A DNA stretch of 64,000 nt from Verrucomicrobiales bacterium. Its GTDB lineage: Bacteria > Verrucomicrobiota > Verrucomicrobiia > Verrucomicrobiales > V1-33. The DNA lies in NCBI GenBank assembly GCA_035550135.1, contig DASZQB010000131.1, positions 66,411 to 130,410 on the forward strand. Direction: 5' to 3'. Positions 3,329 through 38,800 of this stretch are shown piece after piece; position 1 is the first letter of the stretch; each line of letters opens with the position of its first letter. A model generated the notes under the pieces. It was not told the origin of the DNA. It worked only from the letters and a program-made list of their open reading frames with translations, and made no database searches. The translations under genes and the position numbers were made by a program.

Positions 3329-3520
3329 CTTACGTTTTCCGTGCCGCCCCAGACTGATTGCCAGTCTGTTCCGCGGAATCGCATAGTTGCGATATGATTC
3401 CTTTTTGAGAGCAGTCTGCAATAAAACGTTTTCGGGGAATACAGGGTTTACCTGATATTGGTTTTTGATAATATAATAAACACACACGAATGGCTTCCGA
3501 CCGGTATTGATGTTATAAAA

Positions 3521-20471: not shown

Positions 20472-20474
20472 ACC

Positions 20475-22502: not shown

Positions 22503-22509
22503 CAACGCC

Positions 22510-24357
22510 ATGAAAATCACTCCTGAACCCGCCAGCGTCATCGACACCTCCAAAATGTCCGAAGGCCAGCGCGCCGCGCTGGAGACCACCGAGGCCGCGC
22601 GCGAGCACGTGAAGGAGGAAACCTTCGCCGCCTCGCTGTTCATGGGCCGTCCCGATTTCTCGCGGCTTCTTCCCTTTCCTCACCAAACCGTGGAGGACGA
22701 AGACCAGGGCGATGCTTTCATCGAGCGTCTCAGCGGTTTCCTAACCACTCACGCCGATCCCGACGCTATCGACCGCGAGGGCGAAATCCCGGACGACGTC
22801 ATGCAGGGCCTCGCGCAGCTTGGCGCGTTCGGCATCAAGATTCCCAAGACCTATGGCGGCCTCGGCCTGTCGCAAACGAACTACGCCCGCGCCGCCATGT
22901 GGCTGGGTGGATTCTGCGGCAATATCACCGCTCTCCTTTCCGCCCACCAGTCCATCGGCGTCCCGCAGCCGCTCCTGCTTTTCGGCACCGAAGAGCAAAA
23001 GAAAAAATGGCTCACACGCTGCGCCGCCGGTGAGATCAGCGCCTTCGCCCTGACGGAAACCGAAGTCGGCTCCGACCCCGCCCGCATGCGCACCACCGCC
23101 GTTCCCACGGAGGATGGAAAGAGTTTCGTCATCAACGGCGAGAAACTCTGGTGTACCAACGGCACCCGCGCCGGCTTCATCGTCGTCATGGCTCGCACTC
23201 CCGCGACCGAAGGCTCCAAATCCGGACGCACCCCCATCACCGCCTTCATCGTGGATATGGACACTCCCGGCGTGGAAGTCGTGCGCCGCTGCCGCTTCAT
23301 GGGCCTGCGTGCTTTGTATAATGGTGTCATCCGCTTCAAGGACGCCGTCGTCCCGCGCGAGAACATCATCCTCGGCGAAGGTAAAGGCCTGCGCGTCGCC
23401 CTAACCACTCTCAACACGGGCCGCCTCACCCTTCCCGCCGCCTGCGCCGGGGCCATGCATCGCTGCGTCGAGTGGTCGCGCGACTGGGCGACTAAGCGCG
23501 AACAATGGGGCGCTCCCATCGCCAAACACGCCGCCATTGCCGAAAAACTCGCCCGCATGTCCGCCCGCGCCTTCGCGCTCGAAAGCGTGGTGCGCCACGT
23601 CTGCGCCCTCGTCGATCAGGATAAACACGCCGACATCCGCCTCGAAGCCGCCATCGCCAAACTGTGGGGCACCGAGCGCGCATGGGAGACCATCAACGAC
23701 ACCATGCAGATTCGCGGCGGACGCGGCTACGAAACCGCCGAAAGCCTGCGTGCCCGCGGTGAAGCGGGCGTGCCGATTGAGCGCTTCCTCCGCGATGCCC
23801 GCATCAACACCATCTTCGAAGGCTCCACCGAAATCATGCGCCTCTTCATCGCCCGCGAAGCCCTCGATCCGCACCTCCAAAAGGGCGGTGCCGTCCTGAA
23901 TTCCAAGCTCCCCCTCAAGGTCCGCCTCGCCGCCGCATGGAACGCCACGAAGTTCTACGCGGGCTGGCTCCCCCGCACCTTCAAGCCGGTTGTGGGTGTT
24001 CCCGACGGCCTCAAACACTTCCGCCGCGAAACCCGTAAAGTCATCCGTCTCAGCCATAAACTCGCCCGGCGCATCTTCTCCCGAATGGTGCGCTTCGGCC
24101 CGAAACTTGAACGGGAGCAACTCGTCCTCGGCCACCTCGCCGACGCCGGCGCGGAACTCTACATCGCCTCCGCGGTCATCGCCCGCGTCGAATCCCTCCT
24201 CGCCCGCGAAACCGACCCCGCCGCCCGCCAGCGCCTCACCACCCTCGCCCGCTACGCCTGCCGCCTCAGCCTCGACGCCTGCTCCACTCACCTCCGCCTC
24301 AGCGGCAGTTCCACTGAGCGCATGTCGAAACGGGTGGCAAAGTGCCTGGCCGCATAA
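22510..24357 (+). CDS. Acyl-CoA dehydrogenase family protein (long form)
   Basis: FALTETEVGSDPARM, WCTNG, GGRGYETA and IFEGSTEIMRLFIARE are ACAD N/M/C-domain motifs. The start is either ATG 22486 (overlapping the fadB-like stop) or ATG 22510. Confidence 0.88.
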   Translation: MKITPEPASVIDTSKMSEGQRAALETTEAAREHVKEETFAASLFMGRPDFSRLLPFPHQTVEDEDQGDAFIERLSGFLTTHADPDAIDREGEIPDDVMQGLAQLGAFGIKIPKTYGGLGLSQTNYARAAMWLGGFCGNITALLSAHQSIGVPQPLLLFGTEEQKKKWLTRCAAGEISAFALTETEVGSDPARMRTTAVPTEDGKSFVINGEKLWCTNGTRAGFIVVMARTPATEGSKSGRTPITAFIVDMDTPGVEVVRRCRFMGLRALYNGVIRFKDAVVPRENIILGEGKGLRVALTTLNTGRLTLPAACAGAMHRCVEWSRDWATKREQWGAPIAKHAAIAEKLARMSARAFALESVVRHVCALVDQDKHADIRLEAAIAKLWGTERAWETINDTMQIRGGRGYETAESLRARGEAGVPIERFLRDARINTIFEGSTEIMRLFIAREALDPHLQKGGAVLNSKLPLKVRLAAAWNATKFYAGWLPRTFKPVVGVPDGLKHFRRETRKVIRLSHKLARRIFSRMVRFGPKLEREQLVLGHLADAGAELYIASAVIARVESLLARETDPAARQRLTTLARYACRLSLDACSTHLRLSGSSTERMSKRVAKCLAA

Positions 24358-24806: not shown

Positions 24807-26102
24807 TCAGCTCCGGGGAACGGTTATCGTCTCTTCAGTCTCCGCTTTGAGAATGTCCTCGATCGTTTCGCGGCGGGAAATTTGGGTCAGGGTGCCGTCT
24901 GGCTCCAGCCAAATTTGTGGAGCACGACCCACCGAGTTATAGTTGCTGCTCATCGCGTAGCCGTAGGCACCTGCATCGCGAATGGTCAGAAGATCGCCCG
25001 GACTGACGGAGGGCAGGGGACGCGGCTGGATGAGTTCCGCTTCGTCGCGGGTGAAGACATCACCACTTTCACAGAGCGGGCCGGCGACAACAACGGATTC
25101 GGCGGAGGGAGCATCCTCCTTGCCCACGACGGAGATACCGTGCCAGCTCCCATACATGGCGGGACGCACAAGGTCCACGAACCCGGCATCGACCATGGCG
25201 AAGGTGGCGCCGTTGCCCTTGCTGTTGGTTTGGGTGCGCTTCACGTCCGTGACACGAGTCACGAGCGTGGCGGCGGGGGCCACATAATAGCGGCCAGGCT
25301 CGATTTCCAAACGCAGGGGCCGTCCCGCAGCGGCACTGAGTTTTTCCTGGGCCCACGTAAAAAGCTCCCGCAGGCGTCCGATGGGCTGCGCCGCGTGGAC
25401 GTCACGGTAGTTGTGGGGAATCCCGCCTCCGAGACTAATGGCCTCCATGTCCGGAAATTGCGGCAACAGCGACACGAATAGGTCTGACAGATGCGATAAA
25501 TTGTCGATCAGTTCGTCAAATTGCGGCCCGCTGCCGATATGGGCGTGCAGCATCACGACTTTCATCCCTGCCGCTTTAGCGGCGACACCCGCGGCGGAAA
25601 TGTCCGAATGCCATATTCCATGCTTGCTGCTGGGCCCGCCGGTGTCGCAGGAGTTCACGTGCCCATGGCCGAACCCTGGGTTTACGCGCAGAGAGATTTT
25701 CCCCCGATAGCCGGCTTCGCTCAATTGGCGGATCATGCCTGGTGAGCCAATGTTCGGCAGGATGGTGTTTTCCAGCACTATACTCAGCGCATTGTCGCGA
25801 AAGACGTCCGCAGTGAAACAAATGGCCGGCGGTTCCATGCCTGCCGGGTGACCGGCACGCAGAGCCCGGAGGACTTCATTTCCGGAAACGGCGTCGATCC
25901 AGATACCCGCAGCAGCCATTTCGCGCACGACTTTCGAGGCGGGACAGGCCTTCATGGCAAAGCGCGCCTGAAGATTCGGAGCATCCGTGATGCTGCGGAT
26001 GTCAGCGATGCGTTTCCGGATCACGCCGGCGTCATAGAGCCAAAACGGAGTGCCGACCGAGGCGGCGAGCGAATGAAGAAGTTCCGGAGAATGAGCAGGC
26101 AT
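24807..26102 (-). CDS. lysA: Diaminopimelate decarboxylase
   Basis: PLP-dependent Orn/DAP/Arg decarboxylase family: FWLYD, ARFAMKACP (PLP Lys), HAHIGSG, LGGGIPHNY, GPLCESGD. Confidence 0.85.
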   Translation of the reverse strand: MPAHSPELLHSLAASVGTPFWLYDAGVIRKRIADIRSITDAPNLQARFAMKACPASKVVREMAAAGIWIDAVSGNEVLRALRAGHPAGMEPPAICFTADVFRDNALSIVLENTILPNIGSPGMIRQLSEAGYRGKISLRVNPGFGHGHVNSCDTGGPSSKHGIWHSDISAAGVAAKAAGMKVVMLHAHIGSGPQFDELIDNLSHLSDLFVSLLPQFPDMEAISLGGGIPHNYRDVHAAQPIGRLRELFTWAQEKLSAAAGRPLRLEIEPGRYYVAPAATLVTRVTDVKRTQTNSKGNGATFAMVDAGFVDLVRPAMYGSWHGISVVGKEDAPSAESVVVAGPLCESGDVFTRDEAELIQPRPLPSVSPGDLLTIRDAGAYGYAMSSNYNSVGRAPQIWLEPDGTLTQISRRETIEDILKAETEETITVPRS

Positions 26103-26199: not shown

Positions 26200-29100
26200 T
26201 CACTTTTTCAACACCGCCTGCAATGGCCCTGGCAATGCTGTTTGAGGAGTGAGGGTGCCGGTGAAGGTGTCTTTCTCATCGTCACCAGCCCCCTCCTTCA
26301 TCTGTGCTTTCAGGCTGCCATCCGCGTTTTGACCAATGGTTAGTTCCCGTGTGGACTTTTCGTTCATCCTGAACTGAAGGGTCACGGTCCCGTCGCTGTG
26401 GACATGCACATTCGTGCAGGGTTCGTCCGAATCCTTCCAAACGAAGGCATACCCTTTGGCGTCGTCCTCCGGCACGCTCCAGTTATCCCCCTGGGCCATT
26501 TTCAGAATATTGAGTGATGTGTTGAGTCTTGGGACCGGCTCCAGCGCTGCGGGAATGCCGCTCTTTTGCAGCGCTTCGCGCGTCACGAGGAGACAATCGG
26601 AAAAGCGATTGAGCGGAATCCGTCCGCCGGCGCCCGCACCGCCGGTCATGGGGTTCATGGCGTCAAGATCCAGCTTAATCTCGGAGACCGTATTGATAAT
26701 GACCGCGAGCAGCGCCAGACTTTCAATGGGGTCGTTTAAAACGAGCCTGCGGTAGGGATTTCGCTGCGGGCGCAGCAGGTAAAACCGTCCGTCGCGCCGT
26801 GTGAGATAAACCGGATAGGAAAGCACTGGCCGCGATGCGGCTTTTGCCAGTCCGGCAAAGACCTCCTTCACTTTTCCCTCCGGTGCGGGAAAACGCTGGC
26901 CGGCGATGTAATCGACGAGGGCCTTCATGACGGTTTGCTCTTCATCCTCGGCGACGCGGGATTTCCAGTCGAGCAGGCTGTAAAGAACCGGGGACCATCC
27001 GGGCGGAAGCCGCAGCGCGGCTCTCTTTCCGGCCTCGATGGCAAGTGTGCCGCCGTCTTTTGCGTCCACGATGCTGCCGGCCTTTCCGGCTTTGCCCGGC
27101 GCGGGTTCGTCATCGTCGAAACTGACGAGCCACGGGCCGGCGGGAACGGTGAGGTTGCTCTGTGTCCTGGTATCTACAAACCGCGTGGTCTCCGTGCCCG
27201 GCGAGGCATAACCGGCATCACCCGCCCATTTCAACCATGCGCGGCTTTGGAAAGAGGGGGTGGCGGCGGGAGCATCGGACAGGGTGAGAGTGCCCGTCTC
27301 TCTTGTGATCGTCACTGCCAGCGGTGCTGTTGAATTGCTGCCAACCTCCAAAGTGGCGGGAACGATTTTGATGCCTTTCTTCGAACTGGACAACGCGACC
27401 TTCAGCGGCGGTGCATCCGATTTCGTTGTGATCCTCACTTCATCCCCGTCCCGCGTGACTTCCGAATCGCCCGTGCCGGACAACTGAATATCCGCCGGCA
27501 AAGCGCCGCCGGAGAATTTGATAGTGGTCACGTGCGACTCCGCGCCTGGAGGCTGATCCGGTTTCGGATCACCGTCTTTCTTCTTAGCCATCCACCACGC
27601 CACGCCGCCTCCAATGACCGCCACTGCAGCCGCGATCGCGAGCACCGGCGATTTGCTTCCTTTTTTCTTCGGCGTTTCCTGAGTCTCTGCCGGCGTGACG
27701 GCCGGTACCGCTTTGAGGCGTTTCTCCTCCGCTTCGGCTTTTCGCTGCGCGGCTTCCTCCTGGGATCTGCGCTTTGCTTCGGCGTCGGCGTTGCGTTTCG
27801 CTTCCGCCTCCTCTTTGCGTCGTGCCTCCTCTTCTGTTTTGCGTTTGTCGGCCTCCTCCTTGAGGCGGCGCTTTTCCTCCGCTTCGGCTTTTCGGCGGGC
27901 TTCCTCCTCCGCTTTACGTTTCGCAGCTTCTTCGGCGAGACGGCGTTTCTCCTCTTCGGCGGCCTTCCGCCTGGCTTCCTCTTCGCGCTGCCGTTCTGCT
28001 TCCTGTTCGGCTTTTATGCGCGCTTCCTCCGCGGCCCTTGCGCGCGCCTCTTCCTCTTGAATCCGTTTGCGCTCTGCCTCCTCAGCGAGGCGCGTCGCCT
28101 CTTCCGCGGCCCTGACACGTTCAGCCTCTTCCCGCGCAAGACGCCGGGCCTCCTCCTCCAGTCTTCGTTTCTCCGCTTCCTCTTTGGCGATTCGCCTTGC
28201 GTTCTCCTCTTCGATGCGGCGCTGCTCCGCTTCCTCTGCGAGACGTTTTGCCTCGGCTTCGGCGCGAAGTCTGGCTTCTCTGGCAGCCTTCAATCTTGCG
28301 GCCTCCTCTTCAAGCTGGCGGCGTTCCGTCTCTTCCTCCGCCTGACGGCGTGCCTCCTCCTCGGCCTTTCGCCGGGCTTCCTCTGCAATGCGCAGACGTT
28401 CGGCTTCTTCAGCAAGGCGCTTTGCTTCCGCTTCGGCAAAAATCCTCGCCTCCTCCTCCGCTTTGAGTCTTGCCGCCTCTTCTTCAATCCGCCGGCGTTC
28501 CTCCTCTTCGGCGCGTCGTTTGGCCTCCTCCGCCTGGCGCTTCGCTTCCTCTTCCGCTTCGCGTTTGGCTTCCTCCTCTTCAATACGACGGCGCTCTGCT
28601 TCCTCTGCGAGACGCTTCGCCTCGGCCTCTGCAAAAAGTCTGGCTTCCTCCTCCGCCCTGAGCCGTGCGGCTTCCTCTTCCATCCGGCGCTGTTCTGCTT
28701 CTTCGGCCAGGCGCTTCGCTTCCGCTTCGGCGCGAATTCTTGCTTCCTCTTCTGCTTTGAGCCTCGCGGCCTCCTCTTCAATTCGTCGCCGCTCTGCTTC
28801 TTCGGCGAGACGTTTCGCTTCCGCTTCGGCGCGAATCCTTGCTTCCTCCTCTGCTTTGCGCCTCGCCGCTTCCTCTTCAATGCGACGCCGTTCCGCCTCT
28901 TCCGCCTGACGTCTGGCTTCCTCTTCCGCGATGCGGCGGGCCTCTTCTTCAGCCTTTCGTCTCGCCTCCTCTTCCGCGACGCGGCGCTGCTCCGCTTCTT
29001 CAGCGAGCCGTTTGGCCTCCGCCACCTGGCGCTGACGCTCGATTTCCTCCAGACGGCGGCGTTCCATTTCCTCCTCCATGCGGCGCCGGGCTTCCTCCTC

Positions 29101-32100
29101 TTCGCGCAGCCGCTGTTCCTCCGCCTCGCGTTCGAGTCGTGCCGTTTCCTTGATCGCAAAATCGGCCTCCTGCCAATGGCGCGCGGCTTCTGAAGCCTGA
29201 CTCCGGCAGAGGCCGGCAAACCGGCGGGCTTCCTCGATGATCCGTCCGGCGTCGGCGGCGCGCTGTGGATCGAGCGAAGCGGCGAGAGCGGTGAGTGAAT
29301 CCCGGCTTTGAACCGCGCTGCCAACAGAATCCCCGCATCTTCTCAACCAAGCCGCGCCCGGGGAATCCGGCGTCGCCGTCAACGCCGCCGGATCGGGCAG
29401 GGAAGCAATGGCCTCGTCCGCCGCATTTGTCAGGGTCACTATTTCCGCCGAGGCCGCACGGAAACGCTCCATCACGCGACGGTGCTCGTCCGCGATGGGA
29501 CGAACCTGCCTGATGGCGGAGTGCAAACTTCCCATCACGCTGCGCAGGTCATCGAGAGAGGTGGCGGAACGCTGCCGCGCCTGATTGACGCCGGCGGCAT
29601 CAATGGTGCCCAGCGTGCGCAGGGAGTGCAGTTCCTCCACGATGCCCGCCGCGCGACTGGCATCCGCGGCAGCGCGCTGCGCGATTTCATGCAAAGCCGG
29701 GCATTCCTCCGCGAGGGCATCGATTTCCGCGCGGATCGCGGGAGCGTCCGCTGCGGTCTGTTCCGCCTGCTGGATGAAACCGGAGATTTCAGCCTCCACC
29801 GCGGCGCGCAGTTTCGCCTCCTCTTCACGGCGACGGGCATCGATCTTCGCCCTCTCCAAAAGAGAGTGACAGGCACGAGCCATTTCACCGGCATCCGCCG
29901 CGACCTGTCGCGCCTGGGGGATTTGCGATTCCAGGCGGCTCAACTCCGCCTCCGGCACCTCCGCGGCTTCACGGTGCAAAGCCTCCAATTGAGAAACCAG
30001 GGCACCCGTTTGCGCGGCGAAGCTGTCCATTTGCCGCGCTGCGCCGGCTGAAGGGGCGACCCGCCGGCATTCCTCCGCCAGTTCCTTTGCTTCTTTGGCG
30101 GCGGCTTCGGTGCGGCGCCATGCATCGGCAAGCGACTCCGTGAGTTCACGGCGCCGCCGTTCGCGCTGCTGCGTTTCGCGCTGCAGTTTTTCGGCAGTGG
30201 CTTTGGCTTCCTTCATCGCCGCCTCCGCCTTCGCCAAAGCGAGCGTGGCGGTTTGCGAAATCTCGTCGAGCGCCGCCACGGCGGCCTTTCCCGCCGCCAG
30301 GGATTTCCCGCCGCCCTGACTGATCAGCGCCTGCTTTTCGCGCGCGGCGGTGGACGCATCATACACGCGGGACACGCAGGCATAACATTCCTTCACCGCA
30401 TCAGGGACGATTTCCGCAAAGGGACGGCATGCGTTTGCGATCTTTTCGGCATCGGCGGCCGCCTGCTCGATGTCATCCATCAGAATTCCAGACTGCTGAA
30501 TGATGCCGCCCCAGCGCGTTTGCCGGATGCGTTCGCCCACACTTTCCCATGAGATGCCGTCCGAGACGAACAACTGCCGCACCAGATCCTCACATTTCGG
30601 CGGCGAACTCTGGCCGCACAAATGCCGCGCCAGGATTTGATTAGCAGCGTCCCCCAGGCCCGGCAGCGCAATATATTCCTTCATGGAATAAAGCGAAGAG
30701 GGCGGCGGATTTTTTCCTCCTACAATAAAATACACCCACCGTGCCAGCAGTTGCACCCCCGCCACGCTCGTGGTGGTGGTGCGGGTGAAGTCGCCGCCCG
30801 TTGCCGTTGCGTCCGCGTCGGGTGTTGCGGCACCGCTTTGCACCGCCGGAGAAAGAGGGATTTTCAGGTTTACGACAGACCAGTCGATGGGGCGGTTTGC
30901 GTCTTCAGGCGGCATCTCCACCAGTGTGTCCTCCAGGAGGAGATTTGCGAGGCCCGCGGCGAAAGCGGTATCCATGGCGGTGCTGATTTGCCACACCAGC
31001 GGTGCATAACGTCCGAGGGGCTTGGCGCCCTCGCGCCGGAGAATATCGGTCAGGGAAACACCCGGCGCCGCCTCCTCCACGACGGCCCAGCCCTCGTTGA
31101 ACTCGCTGATGTCCAGCACCCGCAACAGGCCGCTGCCTTCCATGTCACGCATGGCGGTCGCGGCCTTTTTGTATTGGGCAATGGCCGCCGCGAGATTTCC
31201 CGAGCGGAGCAGCGTCACCTTCACCTTCAGCCGTTTTTCGCGGTCGATGGCCTGATGGACGGTGCCGTGTCTCGACTGCACGCCCTTCTCCAGCATAAAC
31301 CGGTCCGCCAGAGCGCCCCCGGAGCGCTGCCGCTTTTGCCAGCCGCCGCTCAGCGGAGGCATTCCCTGAAGGCACGCGCGCAGGTCGTTGAGCAGGTCCA
31401 TCCCGTTTGCATACCGCTCGCCGGGATTTCGCTTGATCATGCGGGCGAGAACGGCGCGTGGTTTGGCGGTGAGCTGTTTTGGCAGTTGCGGCTCATAGTC
31501 CCCGCCTGACAAGCGCTCCTGAATGACCACATCCGCGGCACCCTCCAGAGGATTGCGGCCCATCAGCAGGAACCATCCGGTCATCCCCAGGGAAAAGATA
31601 TCGCTGCGCCCGTCGGTCGGCTGCGACCGGATTTGCTCCGGACTGGCGAAAGCGGCGGAGAAAAGCGGGCGGCCCTCCATCCCGGGCGGCCCGTTCTCCG
31701 TCGCGGTGCGCTGGACCAGCCCGAAGTCGATCAGCTTCACCTGAGGCTTGTCATCCTCATCGAAGACGAGCATCAGGTTAGAGGGCTTTATATCCAGATG
31801 CACGACACCGCGCCGGTGAGAATATTCCAGCGCCTCCGCGGCCTGGAGTAAAAGGTGAAACGTGTCCGAAACCGACAGCGGGCCGGTCTTGATCACAAAC
31901 TCTTTGATGTTCCCGCCGGGACAAAGCTCGACCGCATAATAAAGCTGGCCCTCCACCTGGCCGCAGTCGGTGATGCGCGCGATACCGGGATGCGAGAGAC
32001 GCGCTTGCTCACGCGCCTCCTTCAGGAAGCGATTGCGCGCCGCCTCGTCCATGGCGTGGCGCTCGTCGATGAGTTTCAACGCGACTTCGGTATCGAGCAC

Positions 32101-32223
32101 GAAATGCCGCGCGAGCAGGGTGCGTCCGAAGCCCCCCCGTCCCAGTTCGTTTACCGAACCGTCGGGCCTTACCAGCACTTCAAAATTGCCGAAGCGCAGA
32201 CCGGTGGTGTCATCCTGAAACAT
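26200..32223 (-). CDS. Giant single-pass membrane Ser/Thr protein kinase (kinase, kinase-like domain, long helical region, ER/K repeat helix, TM, extracytoplasmic domain)
   Basis: Hanks kinase landmarks at the N-terminus: GRGGFGRT, VALK, HLDIKPSNLM, DFGL, ASPEQ (about nt 31370-32190). A second kinase-like stretch without catalytic residues spans aa ~300-440. About 480 aa are almost pure E/A/R/K (nt 27715-29150). The TM helix is PVLAIAAAVAVIGGGVAWWMA (nt 27587-27650). The C-terminal ~460 aa have no recognised motif. Confidence 0.9.
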   Translation of the reverse strand: MFQDDTTGLRFGNFEVLVRPDGSVNELGRGGFGRTLLARHFVLDTEVALKLIDERHAMDEAARNRFLKEAREQARLSHPGIARITDCGQVEGQLYYAVELCPGGNIKEFVIKTGPLSVSDTFHLLLQAAEALEYSHRRGVVHLDIKPSNLMLVFDEDDKPQVKLIDFGLVQRTATENGPPGMEGRPLFSAAFASPEQIRSQPTDGRSDIFSLGMTGWFLLMGRNPLEGAADVVIQERLSGGDYEPQLPKQLTAKPRAVLARMIKRNPGERYANGMDLLNDLRACLQGMPPLSGGWQKRQRSGGALADRFMLEKGVQSRHGTVHQAIDREKRLKVKVTLLRSGNLAAAIAQYKKAATAMRDMEGSGLLRVLDISEFNEGWAVVEEAAPGVSLTDILRREGAKPLGRYAPLVWQISTAMDTAFAAGLANLLLEDTLVEMPPEDANRPIDWSVVNLKIPLSPAVQSGAATPDADATATGGDFTRTTTTSVAGVQLLARWVYFIVGGKNPPPSSLYSMKEYIALPGLGDAANQILARHLCGQSSPPKCEDLVRQLFVSDGISWESVGERIRQTRWGGIIQQSGILMDDIEQAAADAEKIANACRPFAEIVPDAVKECYACVSRVYDASTAAREKQALISQGGGKSLAAGKAAVAALDEISQTATLALAKAEAAMKEAKATAEKLQRETQQRERRRRELTESLADAWRRTEAAAKEAKELAEECRRVAPSAGAARQMDSFAAQTGALVSQLEALHREAAEVPEAELSRLESQIPQARQVAADAGEMARACHSLLERAKIDARRREEEAKLRAAVEAEISGFIQQAEQTAADAPAIRAEIDALAEECPALHEIAQRAAADASRAAGIVEELHSLRTLGTIDAAGVNQARQRSATSLDDLRSVMGSLHSAIRQVRPIADEHRRVMERFRAASAEIVTLTNAADEAIASLPDPAALTATPDSPGAAWLRRCGDSVGSAVQSRDSLTALAASLDPQRAADAGRIIEEARRFAGLCRSQASEAARHWQEADFAIKETARLEREAEEQRLREEEEARRRMEEEMERRRLEEIERQRQVAEAKRLAEEAEQRRVAEEEARRKAEEEARRIAEEEARRQAEEAERRRIEEEAARRKAEEEARIRAEAEAKRLAEEAERRRIEEEAARLKAEEEARIRAEAEAKRLAEEAEQRRMEEEAARLRAEEEARLFAEAEAKRLAEEAERRRIEEEEAKREAEEEAKRQAEEAKRRAEEEERRRIEEEAARLKAEEEARIFAEAEAKRLAEEAERLRIAEEARRKAEEEARRQAEEETERRQLEEEAARLKAAREARLRAEAEAKRLAEEAEQRRIEEENARRIAKEEAEKRRLEEEARRLAREEAERVRAAEEATRLAEEAERKRIQEEEARARAAEEARIKAEQEAERQREEEARRKAAEEEKRRLAEEAAKRKAEEEARRKAEAEEKRRLKEEADKRKTEEEARRKEEAEAKRNADAEAKRRSQEEAAQRKAEAEEKRLKAVPAVTPAETQETPKKKGSKSPVLAIAAAVAVIGGGVAWWMAKKKDGDPKPDQPPGAESHVTTIKFSGGALPADIQLSGTGDSEVTRDGDEVRITTKSDAPPLKVALSSSKKGIKIVPATLEVGSNSTAPLAVTITRETGTLTLSDAPAATPSFQSRAWLKWAGDAGYASPGTETTRFVDTRTQSNLTVPAGPWLVSFDDDEPAPGKAGKAGSIVDAKDGGTLAIEAGKRAALRLPPGWSPVLYSLLDWKSRVAEDEEQTVMKALVDYIAGQRFPAPEGKVKEVFAGLAKAASRPVLSYPVYLTRRDGRFYLLRPQRNPYRRLVLNDPIESLALLAVIINTVSEIKLDLDAMNPMTGGAGAGGRIPLNRFSDCLLVTREALQKSGIPAALEPVPRLNTSLNILKMAQGDNWSVPEDDAKGYAFVWKDSDEPCTNVHVHSDGTVTLQFRMNEKSTRELTIGQNADGSLKAQMKEGAGDDEKDTFTGTLTPQTALPGPLQAVLKK
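27715..29150 (-). repeat. Coding E/A/R/K low-complexity region with 99-bp (33-codon) tandem periodicity
   Basis: Near-identical consecutive 99-bp units lie at 28593-28691, 28692-28790 and 28791-28889 (protein unit EAEAKRLAEEAExRRIEEEAARLKAEEEARIRA). More diverged copies lie at ~28221-28322 and 28395-28496. Degenerate periodicity extends across the whole interval. Confidence 0.9.
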
Positions 32224-32297: not shown

Positions 32298-35200
32298 TCA
32301 CGGGACGACGGAGATTCTAAGGCGTGTGAAGAGCACCGGGCCCGGAGCCAGAGCGGTAAATGTCACCGGATCCGTGCCCGCTGTAGTCATGGGTGTCCAC
32401 AGGACAAGGTCGTCCGAACTCTCCGCGGTGAGCAGCACGTGCGCATCGCAAAGGCTGTCGAAACCGCGGTCAACCGTCAGGGTGGCGGTGTCGGCGGCGA
32501 CAACCGGAAGCGGCAGAGGAGTGAACGCTGCGGGATTGGTGCCCATGAAATACTCCAACAGGTTCGTGAGACCGTCGCCATCGGTGTCATCGGTAGCGGT
32601 TTGAGCCGCGGCGGCGGGAAAGCGATCAACGTAAGCGTTATAACCGGAGAGCGTGCCGGAATTGGAGAAGCCCGGCGTGCGGTGATCGCTGATGCCCCCG
32701 TAGGTGGCCGGGTTCCGGAGCTGGCTGGCCAGCGTGGCATCCGGACTGCGGGCGATCACGCAATTCCCCGCCGATTCTGTGACCGCATCAAAGCCCGGCG
32801 TGAGCATGTCCTGAAGGGAGGTATTGGCGGCACCGAAGACGAGGGCGTCGATGACGTTGTTGCAGGTCGCCGGGGAACCCGCGGTGAATTCCGCCGCCGT
32901 TCCGCGGTACACAGCCACTGCACCCGATGGCGGCAGCCAGTCATTGGCACCCGTATTGAGGCGGCCGGGTCCGCTCGCTGAATCATTCCAGAGCACAAAA
33001 AAATCGTTGGCCGGCCGGAACGAACCGCCCAACTCGAAGGCGGAAACGACAGTGCCTGCCGGACCATATACGACGAAGACAAAACCGGTTAGCGATTTGC
33101 CGCCGCCGCCGGGAGCGGTGAGTTCCACAAAGTCACTGTTATCCGGTGCAATCTGCGCGGTGTCCGCTTCATTAATAAAGGGACCCAATTCGATAAGTCC
33201 GCCATCATCCACCACAGTTAATACGCGAGAGCTGTTGCGCGAGTCGCCCGCGGGACCGCTGAGATACGTAAAACGCACCTGGCGGCTGGCAACCGGCGCG
33301 TCATTCAATGCATCGATGGGGAGTGAGGCGGCCCCCGCGATGAGAGAGCCGGAAGAGCCCGGCGGACGGATCTGTGCGGCGAGGGGATCAGCGCCGACGG
33401 GTTCACTTCGGACCAGGTAAGCGGAACTGCCCACGCCGCCGGAGATGTTCAGCACAGAGGCGCCCGCGCCCGCACTTTCCACGATGCTGGTGCATTTGAA
33501 GGACAGTAGAGACGCATCGCTGTCGCGGATGACAATACTCTGCGAGCTGTTTTGATATGCGGAGGAAAAGGCCGCCACGGTGAATGTGTTGTCACCGTTG
33601 CCTGCGGTGGCGTCGGTGGTGTGGAGAAAGAGATCCACCGTGTCCTGAGTTGCCGCCATGGTGATGGAGTCGCCAACATCCGGCAGCAGTCCCGCGGCGT
33701 CCGTGGTCAGTATGGGAGGTGAGGAAGCCGGGTTGCTGTGGGAGCGGACAAGGCGGACGCAGAGGTCAGAGACATCCGGAGGGAGGCCGTTAGTGGGCCG
33801 AACGATGGTCAGTTTCGCGGCGCCCTTGCCCCACAGTTCCGGCACGCTCGCGGCATTGGCCGTGTTGCTGAAAGTATCTGTAAATGTCAGGCCGATTGAA
33901 GCCGGGACGGGGACGAAGGCAGTGGTGCCGTCTCCCTTCGCGCCCGGCGTGCTGTAAGGCCGGGCGGCATCCAAACGATAACCGGAACTGCCCGGAGCGA
34001 TCGTCCCGAAGAAGAATGGCGCGTCGTAGGTTCCCGGCCCCTCCGCAGGCACCTTCAGCCACTGGTTCCCATAACGGGCGTCGATGGAACCGCTTCCGTC
34101 CACCTTGCGGGAATTGCTGCCGCCCTCGACGGCGCCGAACGTGTGCCCGGCTACTTCAAATCCGGCACCATTGAGCAGGCGCACCGCACTGCCATTGCGG
34201 ATATTCAGCCCGCCGGCTGCTTTGCGAATGATGGCATTGGAGAAAGCCGCCGTAATGCCCTCCGTGACAGTTCCTCCTCCGAAAACGACCAGCGCCTGGC
34301 CGGGGAGCAGAATGGAGCAGGCGGGAAATGTTTGCACGGTGGTTTCGTCCACCGCCAGCCGGAACGCAGAGAGGTCGAGATCGGCGGTGCCTGCGTTGAC
34401 GAGTTCAATGAAGCGATCGCTGTCGTCCTCGACCCCGTCTCCATTGGCATCCACGCCGGGTTTCGTATTGATCCCAACGGGGATATAGCCATTCACTTCA
34501 TTCACCACAACGGTGAGCGGCGAAGAGGCGTCATTGTCGGTCACGGTCAGCCAGCATCCGTGACCGGCGACCTGGACGCCATCCGGGGGCTCGGCCACAA
34601 AAAACGCCCGCTGGGTGCCATCCTGCCAACCATCATCCTGCGGCACCGTCAAAAAATCGGCGCTTTGGCTGCTGCCTGCGGGAATGCTGATGATCATGCG
34701 TGATACCTCTGTGCCTGGCACGAAAACCGGCCCTGGAGCGAGAACGGCCTCGGAAAAGTCCGTGGTATGGAGGGTCACTTCGATTCCACCCGGAGGGGCC
34801 AAAACAGGAGCTCCCTTGGAGTCGAGCAGTTTCACATGCGACACGATGGGCGCACTGCCCTCTGCGGCTTCAAGGTCCGCATCCACGATCTCCAGAAAGA
34901 GTTTACCGCCGGAGGGAAAAGCAGTGAAGTTGTCCCGCCCTGGCGAGGGTTCCTGCGCGGTCCACACGGCTCCATCTTTCGACAGCGATTCGGTCAGGCG
35001 ATTGCCATTGGCGTTCTCATTGAACTGCGCGGACACGCCGAGCGCTGTTTTGAGGTCCACGTCCTCGGCGACGGTGAAACTGGCGTAGAGCAGCGCATCC
35101 ACCCGCGTTTCCCCCGGCGCGGCATTGACGGTGGTGACACTTTTGGGCACCGGCGGCGCGCCGGCGGTAATGAAATTGCCGGGAACGTAAGCATTGGACG

Positions 35201-35645
35201 CATTGTGATACAGCACCACGGCGTCCGGTCCGGGCTGAATGGTGTCGTCGTCCGGCGGCAGGTTGGAAATGGAAGAGGCCTGCGTGGTGGCCAGCACAAG
35301 ATCGACCTTTGGCACTCCGGGGTTGCCCACCACAAAATAACCGGAAGCGCCAATGGCGAATCCATCGAGCGGGATCACACGGTAGAGAAGGTCACTGGCG
35401 CCGTTGAAGAAGGCGAGAGTATAGCCGTTCAGGGATTCACCCGGAACTCCCTTCAACTCAATGAATTGAAAGCCCTCGGTGGCGGGCGCACACTGAATGG
35501 TGGATGAATCGACTTCGTTAAGGCTCACAACCGCGCGGAGCTGGCTGCCCAACATCAGCGCGACGAGAGAGGCGCTCAGTTTTCCGGTGAGGGCGAAGCG
35601 GCTTTGCGAAGCCCGGAGGTACGGGAAATGGAGCCTTTTCATCAT
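32298..35645 (-). CDS. Secreted protein with three lamin-tail-domain (LTD)-like modules and a C-terminal TSP3-like Ca-binding motif plus a beta-rich tail
   Basis: N-terminal signal-like segment ...LSASLVALMLGSQLRA. LTD (PF00932)-type patterns: SLNEVDSS...FQFIELKG (N-terminus), VVVNEVNGY...DRFIELVNAGTADLDLSAFRL (~34290-34520), FINEADTAQIAPDNSDFVELTAPGG (~33000-33190). The C-terminus carries DDTDGDGLTNLLEYFMGTNP. Confidence 0.8.
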   Translation of the reverse strand: MMKRLHFPYLRASQSRFALTGKLSASLVALMLGSQLRAVVSLNEVDSSTIQCAPATEGFQFIELKGVPGESLNGYTLAFFNGASDLLYRVIPLDGFAIGASGYFVVGNPGVPKVDLVLATTQASSISNLPPDDDTIQPGPDAVVLYHNASNAYVPGNFITAGAPPVPKSVTTVNAAPGETRVDALLYASFTVAEDVDLKTALGVSAQFNENANGNRLTESLSKDGAVWTAQEPSPGRDNFTAFPSGGKLFLEIVDADLEAAEGSAPIVSHVKLLDSKGAPVLAPPGGIEVTLHTTDFSEAVLAPGPVFVPGTEVSRMIISIPAGSSQSADFLTVPQDDGWQDGTQRAFFVAEPPDGVQVAGHGCWLTVTDNDASSPLTVVVNEVNGYIPVGINTKPGVDANGDGVEDDSDRFIELVNAGTADLDLSAFRLAVDETTVQTFPACSILLPGQALVVFGGGTVTEGITAAFSNAIIRKAAGGLNIRNGSAVRLLNGAGFEVAGHTFGAVEGGSNSRKVDGSGSIDARYGNQWLKVPAEGPGTYDAPFFFGTIAPGSSGYRLDAARPYSTPGAKGDGTTAFVPVPASIGLTFTDTFSNTANAASVPELWGKGAAKLTIVRPTNGLPPDVSDLCVRLVRSHSNPASSPPILTTDAAGLLPDVGDSITMAATQDTVDLFLHTTDATAGNGDNTFTVAAFSSAYQNSSQSIVIRDSDASLLSFKCTSIVESAGAGASVLNISGGVGSSAYLVRSEPVGADPLAAQIRPPGSSGSLIAGAASLPIDALNDAPVASRQVRFTYLSGPAGDSRNSSRVLTVVDDGGLIELGPFINEADTAQIAPDNSDFVELTAPGGGGKSLTGFVFVVYGPAGTVVSAFELGGSFRPANDFFVLWNDSASGPGRLNTGANDWLPPSGAVAVYRGTAAEFTAGSPATCNNVIDALVFGAANTSLQDMLTPGFDAVTESAGNCVIARSPDATLASQLRNPATYGGISDHRTPGFSNSGTLSGYNAYVDRFPAAAAQTATDDTDGDGLTNLLEYFMGTNPAAFTPLPLPVVAADTATLTVDRGFDSLCDAHVLLTAESSDDLVLWTPMTTAGTDPVTFTALAPGPVLFTRLRISVVP

Positions 35646-35891
35646 GGAAAAACAGGGACGGAACAGGAGTTTGGAAAGCCCGGTCCCGGTTCGGTGGGAA
35701 TAGTTGTTTCCCGAAGAAGCGTCAACATCAAAACGCCACGGGCACCCTTCAACTTACCTCCGGCGGAAACGGTCCCCGGTGTATTTCCATGCCACGATTC
35801 TCCGCCTGGAACTCCATAACGCGGACGATTTGAGGTTTGACACGACTGCGCAAATTTCATGCAATTCCAATGTTTTTCACTCATTGGACTC

Positions 35892-38800
35892 ATGAAAACG
35901 CTATCACTATTCTCAATCCCGGGTGTCGCCGGATGCCTTTTATTTAGTGCGTTGAAGGCGCAGGCGCAATTTTACACGGCACCGTTTGGACCGGGCGGTT
36001 CGTGGAATCTTTACGAGGTCACGAACACCACCACGACCTGGAAACTGGGTCACCAAAATGCCATCGCGAAGCAGGCCGGGAGCACGGGAGTTTCCGGGGT
36101 GGCGGCGAATGCGACGACCGGGCACCTTGTGGCAATTGGAAGCTGGGCGGAGAACGGGCTGGTTTCGCTGATGGCGATCAACCATACGAATTCGGCGAAT
36201 GTTTGGATTGGCCTCTGCGACAACGATGATGCGGACCTTGGCGGTTCGACGTGGGCGGATGCGGGCACCAGCCAGACGAGCGATCAGTGGTACTGGGCGG
36301 GAACTTCCGGAGGCACGGGTCCGAACGGATGGCAAAAATTGAGCGAAGGCGGGGGGTATCAGGCGTTTTTCACCGGCGAGCCTAACAACTCAAACAACGA
36401 GGATGCGATCGAAATTCGCGCTGACGGAAAATGGAATGATGTGGCGCACAATACGGCGGGGACCGCGCGGCGGTCGGTGATCGAATGGGAGATCGGTTCG
36501 CTGACCCCCATCGCGGGGGCGCAGGTGATCAATCCGTTTTTTGCTGCGCCGTTCGGGCCGGGAGGAACCTACAATCTTTACATGATGGTCGGGGAGTCGG
36601 ACACGTGGATCAATGCCCATACCAAGGCGACCAGTATTTCGGCGCAGGGAACGGGGCTTCCGAGTCTGATAGGACACTTGCAAACGGGTCACCTGCTGCA
36701 GATTTCCTCGCGCGCAGAGAATTCGTTCGGGACACTGATGGCGAACCGGCTGCTGACGAATACCTATCAAATCGGCGCCAATACGGCGACGACGAACGTC
36801 TGGCTGGGTCTGACGGACAGTGACGATCCGGGCCTGAGCACCACGGAGGCGAACACGGACCGCACGGCGGGATGGATCTGGGCGGGGACCACCGGCGGCT
36901 CCGGTCCGAACGATGCGCAAACGCTGGCGCAAACCGTGGAGGCGCCGATGGCCAACGGTTTGCAATACTGGTTCAACGCAGCGACCAATGAGCCTAATAA
37001 TGCGGGCGGAACAAACTGGCCCTTTGGAGAGGATGCAGGGGAACTGCGCGGAGACGGCCACTGGAATGATCTTCCGCACAAGATTGGTCCGGCGGGAACA
37101 GCGGCGGTAACCACGGTGCGGCACTATATAATCGAATGGGATCTGGGCCTCCCGGTGCCGCCGCCGGAGGTGGCAACGCTGCCGGTGTATTACACGGCGC
37201 AGACAGGGGCGGGCGGGACGTGGAATCTGTATTATCTCGACTACACCATGGACACCTGGCAGGTGTTTGGAAACCGCTACGCCGACGCCAACTTCAACAA
37301 GGCAAGTTTCACCGGACTCCCGTCGATGGCGCTGAACAATACGGCGGGGCATTTGGTGGAAATTGCGGATCAATATGAGCACGGTCTGGTGTACCGTCTG
37401 GCGAATTTTCAGGGCATCTGGCTGGGATTGACCGACAATGAGGGTTTTGGCGGTCAGGAGGCGGGCAATGCTGCCAGCAATCCGACGAATCAGGTCCAGC
37501 CGTTCTGGGTATGGAGCGGGACCAACCCGCCGAGCACGGCGACTTATCGCCGGTGGAATGCCGGTGAGCCGAACGACAGCGGGGGGAATGAGGATGCGGG
37601 CGAAATGACGACCACGGGTTTCATGAACGACAACCAGATCAATAACGTCAACGGGGCCATCCGGCGTGCTCTGGTGGAATGGGATATCCAATCTGCTGTT
37701 CCCATCGTTGGCGCCGTGCAGGTGGCACCGATTCTGGATGGAAGCAGGACCCTGACCAATACGCCGGCCGCGGGCACATGGGCGATCAAGCAGATTTACG
37801 ATCCGATCGAGGCGAACCTGTTTACCGCCACGAAATTCTCACTGGACGGGCCCACGAACGGACGGGTATTCGAGGGCACGGCCGCGGTGATGAATCAGAA
37901 CGACACGCTGGTTTCGCCGGCTACGGCAATCAACTACCCAGGCTGGGGTGACACGGGGCTTTTTGGCGGAGACCTTCCCACCGTGGGCGAAACGGCGAAT
38001 ACCGATGACAACCAGTTCACGCGCTACGCGAGAACGAAGGTGAACGTCACAGAGGAGGGAGACTACACGTTCAATATCCACACGGACGACGGGATGGCGT
38101 TCCGCGTGGCCGGTCAGACGTTTATCTCGGTCTTCGGTCTTGGATTCATCGACTTTGTGGACAAGGGCACCGTGTTCGTGCCTTACGGGGGAGCGGACTC
38201 CAACACGCGGGCGGTGGTGCATTTGGCTCCGGGAGTTTATGATGTGGAACTGCTGTGCTGGGATGCGACGGGCGGAAGTTCGGCGGAGGTTTCGTGGGCC
38301 AGGGGCGTCTTTGCGACGGAAGAATCCGGGGCGGGCCAATGGAGTCTGGTGGGAGACCCGGCTTCAGTCTACCCAACGCCGGTGATCCCGCTGAATATGA
38401 CCGGCTCTCCCGCTTATGGGGACGGTCTTTGGGGACTGCATGTGGTGAGAGGCGCAGGGACCATTGCCAGTCTGACGGATGCCGTGAATGCCTTGCAGGC
38501 GGTTGCGGGCACGCATGATTACGGCACCGCGGCGGTCATCAATCATTCGGATCCGGAATATCCGGGCACGGGCGGCATCTTTCCCGGCGAACTGACGCTG
38601 CCGGGGGACACAGGGGCGGCGGATAACGATTTCGCGGTGCATGGACGCGCGAGACTGGCGATAACCACCGCTGGTCTCCAGACTATCTGCATTCGGTGCA
38701 GCGACTCCGCCGCGCTTCGCATCAAAGGTCAAACATGGCAGCAGATGGGTCCGGAGGCGGGGCTCGATCCCGCGGACTCCTCCACTATCTTTATCTACCG

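What the first reader, a model, noticed from the sequence alone, without database searches (positions are those of the whole stretch)
26200..32223. Giant receptor-type Ser/Thr kinase whose catalytic domain is separated from its membrane anchor by a ~480-residue E/A/R/K helix
The 2007-aa ORF has a canonical Hanks kinase at its N-terminus (GRGGFGRT, VALK, HLDIKPSN, DFG, SPE). A kinase-like stretch lacking catalytic residues follows (aa ~300-440). About 550 aa of Ala-rich helical sequence come next. Then come ~480 aa made almost only of Glu, Ala, Arg and Lys (nt 27715-29150), one TM helix (nt 27587-27650) and a ~460-aa outside domain with no motif I recognise. ER/K single alpha-helices are established rigid spacers in myosins and other eukaryotic proteins. 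If this stretch is one helix, 480 aa at 0.15 nm per residue is roughly 70 nm. The kinase would then act far from the membrane-embedded sensor. I know of no characterised bacterial receptor kinase with this architecture. In a PVC-type cell with complex membrane topology, a molecular-ruler or tether role is conceivable; this is inference.
Basis: partly seen in the sequence, partly recalled or inferred. Interest (0 to 1): 0.75.

Follow-up and report, generated by a model that had tools for sequence, protein, structure and literature searches.

The report
Membrane kinase on a long charged helix
A rare Verrucomicrobiales membrane Ser/Thr kinase has its catalytic domain joined to its membrane anchor by about 1,230 residues, including a 498-residue Glu/Ala/Arg/Lys helix that looks like a very long single-alpha-helix tether; this is an unusual variant of an ordinary kind of bacterial receptor kinase.

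Summary
ORF 26200-32223 (-) encodes 2007 aa. The parts, in order:
- An active-type Hanks kinase (Pfam E=1e-39; HLD, so non-RD).
- A degenerate kinase-like domain (weak evidence: PknA E=5e-4).
- A ~450-aa helical region, modelled confidently by AF2, with four invariant Cys.
- A 498-aa stretch free of Pro and Gly, made of E, A, R and K.
- One TM helix.
- A 461-aa orphan outer domain.

In the charged stretch, opposite charges peak at i+4 (z=+17 against shuffles) and like charges are depleted (z=-14). There is no heptad seam: a/d occupancy is 0.21, against 0.57-0.85 in coiled-coil controls.

Two further orthologue lineages (Verrucomicrobiales/Verrucomicrobiota MAGs) keep the same domain order and the same charge pattern. 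Their charged segments are 322 aa and are built from different tandem-repeat units. A long charged helix is therefore maintained, but its length is not.

My best reading is a semi-flexible tether made by repeat expansion (contour 48-75 nm, rms reach about 30-42 nm), not a rigid fixed-length ruler. Two caveats apply: Arg-rich designed helices aggregate in vitro, and nothing here was tested biophysically.

The family is very rare (three to four lineages found), and no description of it turned up. I rate it a new variant of a known kind, of moderate interest.

The parts
26200..32223 (-). Complete ORF, 2007 aa, bitopic Ser/Thr kinase
   Evidence: Full-length orthologue of 1990 aa in L006 and of 1497 aa in P0004.
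31411..32151 (-). Hanks-type kinase domain, aa 25-271; non-RD (HLD); G-loop, VALK, DFG and SPE intact
   Evidence: Pfam PF00069 E=9.8e-40. 78% identical to both distant orthologues. All motif residues are invariant across four sequences.
30544..31332 (-). Degenerate kinase-like (pseudokinase) domain, aa ~298-560; catalytic Asp, Lys and Asn lost; DFG reads DWS
   Evidence: PF07714 E=0.007. PknA E=0.002 and E=5e-4 with a profile, plus the MviN pseudokinase at E=0.06. Foldseek top 50 hits are almost all kinases, E about 5e-3. hhalign against the protein's own kinase domain is weak (E=0.019, probability 2.4%). AF2 pLDDT is below 50 here. The search alignments cover only aa ~298-475; the C-lobe extension to ~560 is my reading by eye.
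29191..30543 (-). Ala-rich helical region, aa ~561-1011. The core aa ~559-830 is conserved and holds invariant C599, C613, C719 and C785. The part aa 830-1011 varies in length between orthologues.
   Evidence: AF2 models helices of 30-80 residues, pLDDT mostly 74-94. Invariant columns. Core 51-54% identical, variable part 17-18%. Heptad a/d occupancy 0.46, maximum 0.75.
27697..29190 (-). E/A/R/K charged helix, aa 1012-1509 (498 aa); SAH-like; charge period ~8.3 aa
   Evidence: Composition and absence of Pro/Gly. Opposite charges at i+3/i+4: 362 against 186 in shuffles (z=17). Like charges: 40 against 187 (z=-14). No heptad signal.
28379..28930 (-). Diverged tandem repeat inside the charged helix: 99-nt (33-aa) unit, 5.6 copies, 72% matches
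   Evidence: TRF. The repeat finder family D1, 60-76% identity.
27586..27648 (-). Single transmembrane helix, aa ~1526-1546 (PVLAIAAAVAVIGGGVAWWMA)
   Evidence: The only 19-residue windows with mean Kyte-Doolittle above 1.6. An equivalent TM sits at the same place in L006 and P0004.
26929..27546 (-). Outer module A, aa ~1560-1765, all-beta (probably tandem Ig-like sandwiches)
   Evidence: AF2 secondary structure is all strands, pLDDT 50-67. Weak Foldseek hits to Ig-like pilins, E about 1e-3. Present in P0004 and L006.
26203..26928 (-). Outer module B, aa ~1766-2007, alpha/beta, orphan; absent from the P0004 orthologue
   Evidence: No Pfam or PDB hit. Homologues only in P0003/L006, P0005 and P0007. 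AF2 pLDDT is below 50.

Best explanation
What it is. The gene encodes a single-pass membrane Ser/Thr kinase of the common bacterial layout: cytoplasmic N-terminal Hanks kinase, one TM helix, periplasmic C-terminal domain. Its juxtamembrane region has grown to about 1,230 residues.

Order of parts from the N-terminus:
- an active-type non-RD kinase;
- a catalytically dead kinase-like domain;
- a conserved helical bundle or coiled region with four invariant cysteines;
- a 498-residue E/A/R/K segment.

The charged segment. It is free of Pro and Gly, has no hydrophobic seam, and orders its charges so that opposite charges fall at i+4. That is the sequence signature of an ER/K single alpha-helix. 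It arose by tandem-repeat expansion and is kept as 'a long charged helix', not at a fixed length.

Inferred mechanism. The helix acts as a semi-flexible leash with a contour of about 75 nm here and about 48 nm in orthologues (rms end-to-end about 42 and 32 nm at a 15-nm persistence length). It keeps the kinase, pseudokinase and helical-core module attached to the membrane while letting it sweep a large cytoplasmic volume.

A single seamless helix of this length cannot carry a piston or rotation signal. Regulation would then come either from ligand-driven clustering of the outer domains, which raises the local kinase concentration, or from the conserved cytoplasmic module itself (pseudokinase allostery or the Cys4 helical core).

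Shown: the domain order, the kinase motifs, the charge pattern and its conservation, and the variable length. Inferred: the helical monomeric state, N-in topology, the reach, and the mode of regulation.
For: - Kinase: Pfam E=1e-39 with an intact catalytic set.
- Layout: kinase, then TM, then a C-terminal outer domain is the commonest bacterial STK architecture (bioRxiv 10.1101/2025.01.12.632604). The kinase domains of PVC STKs are predicted cytoplasmic (PMC11032199).
- Charged segment: 498 aa, 61% charged plus 23.5% Ala, no Pro or Gly.
- Charge order: opposite charges peak at i+4 (211 opposite against 11 like). Opposite-charge pairs z=+17 and like-charge pairs z=-14 against shuffles.
- No seam: heptad a/d hydrophobic occupancy is 0.21, against 0.57 (tropomyosin) and 0.85 (GCN4). 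There is no 3.5-residue periodicity.
- Literature match: repeats such as AEEEARRK resemble the E4(R/K)4 ER/K motif described in PMC5812594 and the AEEEXXX designs tested in PMC5347031.
- Orthologues: L006 (1990 aa) and P0004 (1497 aa) keep the domain order and the i+4 pattern (z=+11 and +9) although their repeat units are unrelated.
- Composition, not sequence, is conserved: aligned identity in the segment is 55-59%, against 44-46% for shuffled sequence.
- Not an assembly artefact: the DNA repeats are diverged, and one orthologue lies on a 1.48-Mb contig named ctg13261_47x_l.
Against: - No biophysical or structural test of the segment was possible. AF2 was not run on it and could not separate a single helix from a coiled coil anyway.
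- It is Arg-rich (105 R against 35 K), and Arg-rich de novo AEEERRR and AEEEKRR helices aggregated in vitro (PMC5347031).
- At 61% charged it is below the roughly 80% E/K/R typical of natural SAHs (PMC5812594). Its salt-bridge density (0.73 per residue) lies between the coiled-coil controls (0.18-0.24) and ideal designs (1.38).
- At 498 aa it is about 2.5 times the 25-200-residue range reported for SAHs (PMC5347031, PMC10602382), so extrapolating from them is uncertain.
- The length differences between orthologues could equally mean that length is unconstrained, which is the neutral-linker reading.
- Topology rests on the positive-inside rule and on the kinase's need for ATP, not on a predictor.
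Confidence: 0.55

Rival explanations
1. The charged segment is not monomeric. Two (or more) chains pair through inter-helix Glu-Arg contacts, nucleated by the neighbouring conserved helical region. They form a long rod that holds the receptor as a dimer or oligomer and may scaffold other proteins.
For: - Arg-rich AEEERRR and AEEEKRR designs self-associate, and Arg makes promiscuous salt bridges (PMC5347031). The segment has R:K = 3:1.
- Ala recurs about every 4 residues. If Ala counts as a core residue, a/d occupancy rises to 0.52-0.59.
- The adjoining region aa 560-1004 is more coiled-coil-like: a/d occupancy 0.46 (maximum 0.75), a weak SMC hit at E=1e-4, and AF2 helices of 30-80 residues.
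Against: - There is no 3.5-residue hydrophobic periodicity. Bulky hydrophobic residues make up only 10% and recur about every 8.3 residues, which I infer would wind around the helix rather than form a seam.
- Net charge is -26.
- The i+4 charge order is what stabilises a helix from within.
Confidence: 0.2
2. The segment is a largely neutral low-complexity linker produced by runaway repeat expansion. The cell tolerates any long, soluble, non-interfering sequence there. Neither its length nor its stiffness has a function.
For: - Length varies (498 against 322 aa) and the repeat units are lineage-specific. One of them expanded recently: 156 nt, 5.6 copies, 93% matches.
- Aligned identity is barely above the compositional background.
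- The neighbouring helical region also varies widely in length: 181, 313 and 82 aa.
Against: - Three lineages with independent repeats all keep at least 320 residues with almost no Pro or Gly and the same i+4 charge order (z=9-17). Neutral drift of repeats should erode that.
- No orthologue lacks the segment.
Confidence: 0.18
3. The ORF or its repeat region is an assembly or annotation artefact, or a pseudogene.
For: Some assemblies of this organism or its relatives break or are gapped within or just after this gene. The P0001 contig starts at aa 1565, P0002 ends at aa 824, and the L003 scaffold has an N gap.
Against: - The frame is open for 6 kb in 62% GC DNA.
- The DNA repeats are only 60-76% identical.
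- Intact orthologues exist in three independent assemblies.
- P0001 is 100% identical to the C-terminus and comes from a separate JGI sample.
Confidence: 0.03

Closest known systems
Bitopic Hanks-type receptor kinases (PknB, PrkC, StkP and the general kinase-TM-outer-domain bacterial STK layout)
   Same: N-terminal cytoplasmic Hanks kinase, a single TM helix and a C-terminal extracytoplasmic domain. This is the commonest bacterial STK architecture. The best NCBIfam match is the PASTA-kinase model over the kinase domain.
   Different: No PASTA or other known outer domain. NF033483 scores 177 bits against a cut-off of 450. The juxtamembrane spacer is about 1,230 aa; from my own knowledge it is usually tens of residues. 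The kinase is non-RD (HLD). A second, degenerate kinase-like domain follows the first.
ER/K single alpha-helices (SAH domains) of myosin VI and X, caldesmon, and the AEEEXXX designs
   Same: E/R/K-rich, no Pro or Gly, no hydrophobic seam, opposite charges at i+3/i+4. Units such as AEEEARRK resemble the published E4(R/K)4 and AEEEXXX patterns (PMC5812594, PMC5347031).
   Different: 498 aa against the reported 25-200 aa. It holds 23.5% Ala and is Arg-dominated. It is bacterial and lies next to a membrane anchor. The monomeric helical state is untested.
TolA domain II (a long Ala/Lys/Glu-rich helix next to a membrane anchor)
   Same: A long, charged, Ala-rich helical stretch adjacent to a single TM helix (from my own knowledge of TolA). 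There is a weak compositional match to TIGR02794 over aa 1334-1517, E=6.6e-5.
   Different: The score is 22 bits against a cut-off of 59. Here the helix is on the cytoplasmic side and N-terminal to the TM. There is no TolA C-terminal domain.
Kinase-pseudokinase pairs (JAK-type tandem domains; bacterial pseudokinases such as MviN)
   Same: An active kinase and a catalytically dead kinase-like domain sit on one chain. The profile weakly hits the MviN pseudokinase (E=0.06) after PknA (5e-4).
   Different: The order is kinase then pseudokinase. Similarity is at the limit of detection. The bacterial pseudokinase review I checked does not mention tandem arrangements. The allosteric role is inferred only.

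Membership tests
Hanks-type Ser/Thr protein kinase (Pfam PF00069) | Profile score above the curated cut-off | tested here: met
   137 bits against 31.7, E=9.8e-40, aa 25-271.
Hanks-type Ser/Thr protein kinase (Pfam PF00069) | Catalytic residues: Gly-rich loop, VAIK Lys, alphaC Glu, catalytic-loop Asp and Asn, DFG Asp, APE Glu | tested here: met
   GRGGFG, VALK (K50), FLKEA (E69), HLDIKPSN (D144, N149), DFG (166-168) and SPE (194-196) are all invariant in four orthologues. The Arg of HRD is Leu, so the kinase is non-RD.
PASTA-domain kinases (Stk1/PknB, NF033483) | Full-length model score above the cut-off, with extracellular PASTA repeats | tested here: not met
   177 bits against 450, and only the kinase part aligns. 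No PASTA or any other Pfam hit in the C-terminal 461 aa.
ER/K single alpha-helix (SAH domain) | High E/K/R content, no helix breakers, no hydrophobic seam | tested here: met
   61% charged plus 23.5% Ala, no Pro or Gly over 502 aa, a/d occupancy 0.21 against 0.57-0.85 in controls. Charged content is below the roughly 80% typical of natural SAHs.
ER/K single alpha-helix (SAH domain) | Dense network of opposite charges at i+3 and i+4 | tested here: met
   362 opposite against 40 like pairs; z=+17 and -14 against shuffles; the peak is at i+4. The same holds in two orthologues.
ER/K single alpha-helix (SAH domain) | Monomeric, highly helical in solution, weakly cooperative melting | not testable with these tools
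   Needs CD, AUC or SAXS. Caveat: Arg-rich designs aggregate (PMC5347031).
Heptad coiled coil | 3.5-residue hydrophobic periodicity with a/d positions mostly hydrophobic | tested here: not met
   No spectral peak at 3.4-3.7 residues; a/d occupancy 0.18-0.26 in all three orthologues. No dedicated predictor was available.
TolA (TIGR02794) | Model score above the cut-off | tested here: not met
   22.3 bits against 59.45; a compositional match to aa 1334-1517 only.
Protein-kinase-like fold, catalytically inactive (pseudokinase), for aa 298-560 | Detectable kinase homology together with loss of catalytic residues | tested here: inconclusive
   PF07714 E=0.007, below the cut-off. PknA E=5e-4 with a profile. 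Foldseek hits are kinases only, but on a model with pLDDT below 50. hhalign probability is 2.4%. Loss of HRD-D, K and N is visible in the alignment.

The most novel reading that the evidence does not exclude
A small Verrucomicrobiales clade has evolved a 'long-reach' receptor kinase. A true single alpha-helix of 320-500 residues, longer than any characterised SAH, tethers an active non-RD kinase, a pseudokinase and a Cys4 helical sensor module 30-75 nm from the cytoplasmic membrane. The helix length would be tuned by tandem-repeat expansion. This would set how deep into the cytoplasm (for example to the edge of the nucleoid) a membrane-anchored kinase can phosphorylate. It would be a principle of bacterial signalling based on tether geometry rather than on conformational relay.
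Probability: 0.2. Interest if true: 0.75.

Novelty: new variant of a known kind. Interest (0 to 1): 0.5.

Why it matters
If the segment is a real single helix, it would be the longest natural ER/K helix proposed so far, about 2.5 times the usual upper range, and it would sit in a bacterial signalling protein.

Nature has also run a length experiment here: 322 against 498 residues, from independent repeat expansions. That could be used to test how tether length sets the reach and effective concentration of a membrane-anchored kinase.

It also adds two things to the bacterial kinase catalogue: a tandem kinase-pseudokinase arrangement and a non-RD receptor kinase.

Limits: the family is tiny, comes from uncultured MAGs, has no known ligand or substrate, and every functional statement is inference.

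Tried and rejected
- Outer-domain homologues. The word-indexed search found only the identical fragment P0001, twice. The exhaustive HMMER search of 1.84 billion representatives gave six hits, all orthologue fragments apart from P0006, a repetitive protein I take to be spurious.
- Outer-domain identity. No Pfam hit and no PDB sequence hit. The AF2 model of the outer domain has pLDDT 47. Its Foldseek hits (Ig-like pilins at E about 1e-3, phycobiliproteins) are not reliable.
- More orthologues. Two metagenome scans found none. The genome scan found three loci.
- Conserved operon. The upstream LTD-domain gene is syntenic only in the 83%-identical relative. The neighbours differ in L002 and L006. 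No PP2C or FHA partner appeared among the window ORFs I scanned with Pfam.
- Promoter and terminator scan: uninformative.
- TolA and SMC NCBIfam hits: rejected as compositional.
- P0003 as a stand-alone module-B protein: rejected. L003 shows it is the C-terminus of an orthologue split by a scaffold gap.

Full report
OBSERVATION

The ORF at 26200-32223 (-) is real and encodes 2007 aa. Its first 12 residues are identical in all relatives, which fixes the start codon.

Pfam places a protein kinase domain at aa 25-271 (E=9.8e-40). All catalytic motifs are present and invariant among orthologues. The catalytic loop reads HLD rather than HRD, so this is a non-RD kinase.

The region aa ~298-475 is weakly but consistently kinase-like. 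The evidence is PF07714 E=0.007, PknA structures E=0.002 improving to 5e-4 with a four-orthologue profile, and Foldseek hits that are essentially all kinases on a low-confidence model. The alignment shows loss of the catalytic Asp, Lys and Asn, and DFG reads DWS. I extend this domain to about aa 560 because the sequence there resembles a kinase C-lobe by eye. That extension is my reading, not a tool result.

Residues ~560-1011 are modelled by AF2 as long helices, pLDDT mostly 74-94. Residues 1012-1509 are 33% Glu, 23.5% Ala, 21% Arg and 7% Lys. The run with no Pro or Gly covers aa 1005-1506. Its chance probability is about 3e-32 given the rest of the protein.

One hydrophobic helix (aa ~1526-1546) follows. 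After it come 461 residues with no Pfam or PDB relative. The Ala-rich part is about 450 aa, not 550. The charged part is 498 aa. The kinase-like stretch is probably longer than stated.

IS THE REPEAT REGION AN ARTEFACT?

No evidence says so.
- The underlying 99-nt repeat has only 72% matches, and the 189-nt copies are 60-76% identical.
- The frame is open for 6 kb in 62% GC DNA.
- A separate JGI sample holds a contig 100% identical to the C-terminus.
- Analogous regions occur in three other assemblies, one of them a 1.48-Mb contig.
- Several other assemblies do break or are gapped in or just after this gene. Confirmation with long reads is still worthwhile.

RELATIVES

The family is very rare. 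An exhaustive HMMER scan of 1.84 billion representatives with the outer domain found only orthologue fragments, plus one repetitive protein that I take to be spurious. Word-indexed searches, a genome scan and two metagenome scans added little. The relatives are:
- P0002/L001, a Verrucomicrobiales MAG, about 83% identical, truncated at aa 824.
- P0004/L002/L005, a Verrucomicrobiales MAG, 1497 aa.
- L006 (1990 aa, complete) and L003, a Verrucomicrobiota MAG.

All keep the same order of parts: kinase, pseudokinase, helical core, charged helix, TM, outer domain.

Conservation falls from the kinase (78%) through the pseudokinase (60-62%) and the helical core (51-54%) to the outer modules (33-34%). 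P0004 lacks outer module B altogether. The helical core has four invariant cysteines, C599, C613, C719 and C785.

THE CHARGED SEGMENT

Three results bear on whether it is a single alpha-helix (SAH) or a coiled coil.

First, charge order.
- Opposite charges peak at i+4 (211 opposite against 11 like).
- The i+3/i+4 total is 362 opposite pairs, against 186±10 in shuffles (z=+17).
- Like-charge pairs number 40, against 187±10 (z=-14).
- The dominant charge period is about 8.3 residues, from units such as AEEEARRK. These are close to the E4(R/K)4 ER/K motif and the AEEEXXX designs in the literature.

Second, no seam.
- Bulky hydrophobic residues are 10% of the segment.
- There is no 3.5-residue periodicity.
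- The best-register heptad a/d occupancy is 0.21.

Third, conservation of the pattern without conservation of the sequence.
- L006 and P0004 have 322-aa charged segments with the same i+4 bias (z=+11 and +9).
- They are built from different tandem units: 174/54 nt in L006, and 156 nt × 5.6 copies at 93% in L002.
- Aligned identity (55-59%) is only slightly above shuffled sequence (44-46%).
- This is what a selected physical property looks like, and it argues against pure drift.

LIMITS ON THE RULER IDEA

- Published ER/K helices have a persistence length of about 15 nm and lengths of 25-200 residues (PMC5347031, PMC10602382).
- A 498-residue helix has a contour of about 75 nm. As a worm-like chain its rms end-to-end distance is about 42 nm. 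The 322-residue versions give 48 nm and 32 nm. It is a leash, not a rod.
- Length differs by half between orthologues, so a fixed-length ruler is not supported.
- The segment is Arg-rich (105 R, 35 K), and Arg-rich designs aggregated in vitro (PMC5347031). Self-association remains a live rival.
- No tool here can establish the oligomeric state.

MECHANISM (INFERENCE)

The kinase needs ATP and the N-terminal flank of the TM is basic, so the kinase, pseudokinase, helical core and charged helix are cytoplasmic and the C-terminal 461 aa are periplasmic. That matches the commonest bacterial STK layout.

A seamless single helix of this length cannot relay a conformational signal. I therefore favour a tether model. 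The membrane anchor localises the protein, and the catalytic module explores a cytoplasmic shell tens of nanometres deep.

Regulation would come from clustering through the outer domains, from the conserved cytoplasmic module, or from both. The cytoplasmic candidates are pseudokinase allostery, the Cys4 core, and dimerisation through the more coiled-coil-like aa 560-1004 (a/d occupancy 0.46). Non-RD kinases commonly do not depend on activation-loop phosphorylation; this is established knowledge of kinases and was not tested here.

COMPARISON WITH KNOWN SYSTEMS

- It is a member of the Hanks kinase family (tested, met).
- It is not a PASTA kinase (177 against 450 bits, no PASTA).
- It is not TolA (22 against 59 bits).
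- Its charged segment meets the sequence-level criteria of an ER/K SAH. The defining solution behaviour is untestable here.
- The Atlas of bacterial STKs, the PVC kinase survey and a bacterial pseudokinase review do not mention coiled or charged-helix spacers or tandem kinase-pseudokinase chains. Literature searches found no bacterial STK with an SAH. That is absence of evidence within the held library only.

CONTEXT

The gene sits in ordinary chromosomal surroundings.
- An LTD-domain surface protein lies upstream. It is syntenic only in the closest relative.
- An Orn/DAP/Arg-type decarboxylase lies downstream.
- Beta-oxidation genes lie further on.
- No PP2C or FHA partner appeared among the window ORFs I scanned with Pfam.

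VERDICT

The finding is real and the architecture is unusual and rare. It is best described as a new variant of the standard bitopic bacterial Ser/Thr kinase, with a repeat-expanded, SAH-like tether of record length. The rigid-ruler reading is not supported. The long flexible tether reading is the best available, at a confidence of about 0.55. Interest is moderate (0.5).

Noticed in passing
window 29869-30429 (-), aa 599-785 of the ORF; also aa 536 and 544: Four cysteines in the conserved helical core (C599, C613, C719, C785) are invariant across the four orthologue sequences that cover this region. Two more (C536, C544) are invariant across the four that cover the pseudokinase C-terminal region. 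They may form a cytoplasmic metal- or redox-sensing site next to the kinase.
   Followed up: partly
window 31792-31800 (-), aa 142-144: The catalytic loop is HLD, not HRD, in all orthologues, so this is a non-RD kinase. From my own knowledge, that class in eukaryotes is often regulated without activation-loop phosphorylation.
   Followed up: partly
L002 12787-13660: The P0004 orthologue builds its charged helix from a 156-nt (52-aa) unit repeated 5.6 times at 93% identity. This is a recent expansion and is unrelated to the 99-nt unit in the window.
   Followed up: yes
L002 10001-14494 (P0004): This orthologue ends right after outer module A, with the ATP synthase epsilon gene 133 bp away on the other strand. 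Module B is therefore truly absent, and the outer domain is modular.
   Followed up: partly
window 27532-29193 (+): A 553-aa antisense ORF overlaps the charged-helix coding region. It looks like a by-product of the repetitive codon composition, not a gene.
   Followed up: no
window 32298-35645 (-) and 53500-59598 (-): Two giant proteins with lamin-tail domains. One is 1115 aa with LTD plus a sub-threshold TSP3 repeat, directly upstream of the kinase. The other is 2032 aa with LTD, CHB_HEX_C_1/Fn3_assoc and a CotH kinase-like domain. The upstream one is syntenic only in the closest relative, L001.
   Followed up: partly
window 35859-39941 (+): A 1360-aa protein with a C-type lectin domain and a PA14 domain, transcribed divergently from the LTD-kinase pair.
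   Followed up: no
window 24807-26102 (-): A PLP-dependent Orn/DAP/Arg-type decarboxylase lies 98 bp downstream of the kinase on the same strand. The same adjacency is seen on the JGI contig that carries P0001. No functional link was established.
   Followed up: no
window 19116-24357 (+): A beta-oxidation cluster: thiolase, a FadB-like enoyl-CoA hydratase/3-hydroxyacyl-CoA dehydrogenase, and an acyl-CoA dehydrogenase.
   Followed up: no
L003 about 3430-3580: The protein P0003, called as 245 aa, is not a stand-alone gene. It is the C-terminus of an orthologue split by a run of about 100 N in the scaffold.
   Followed up: yes
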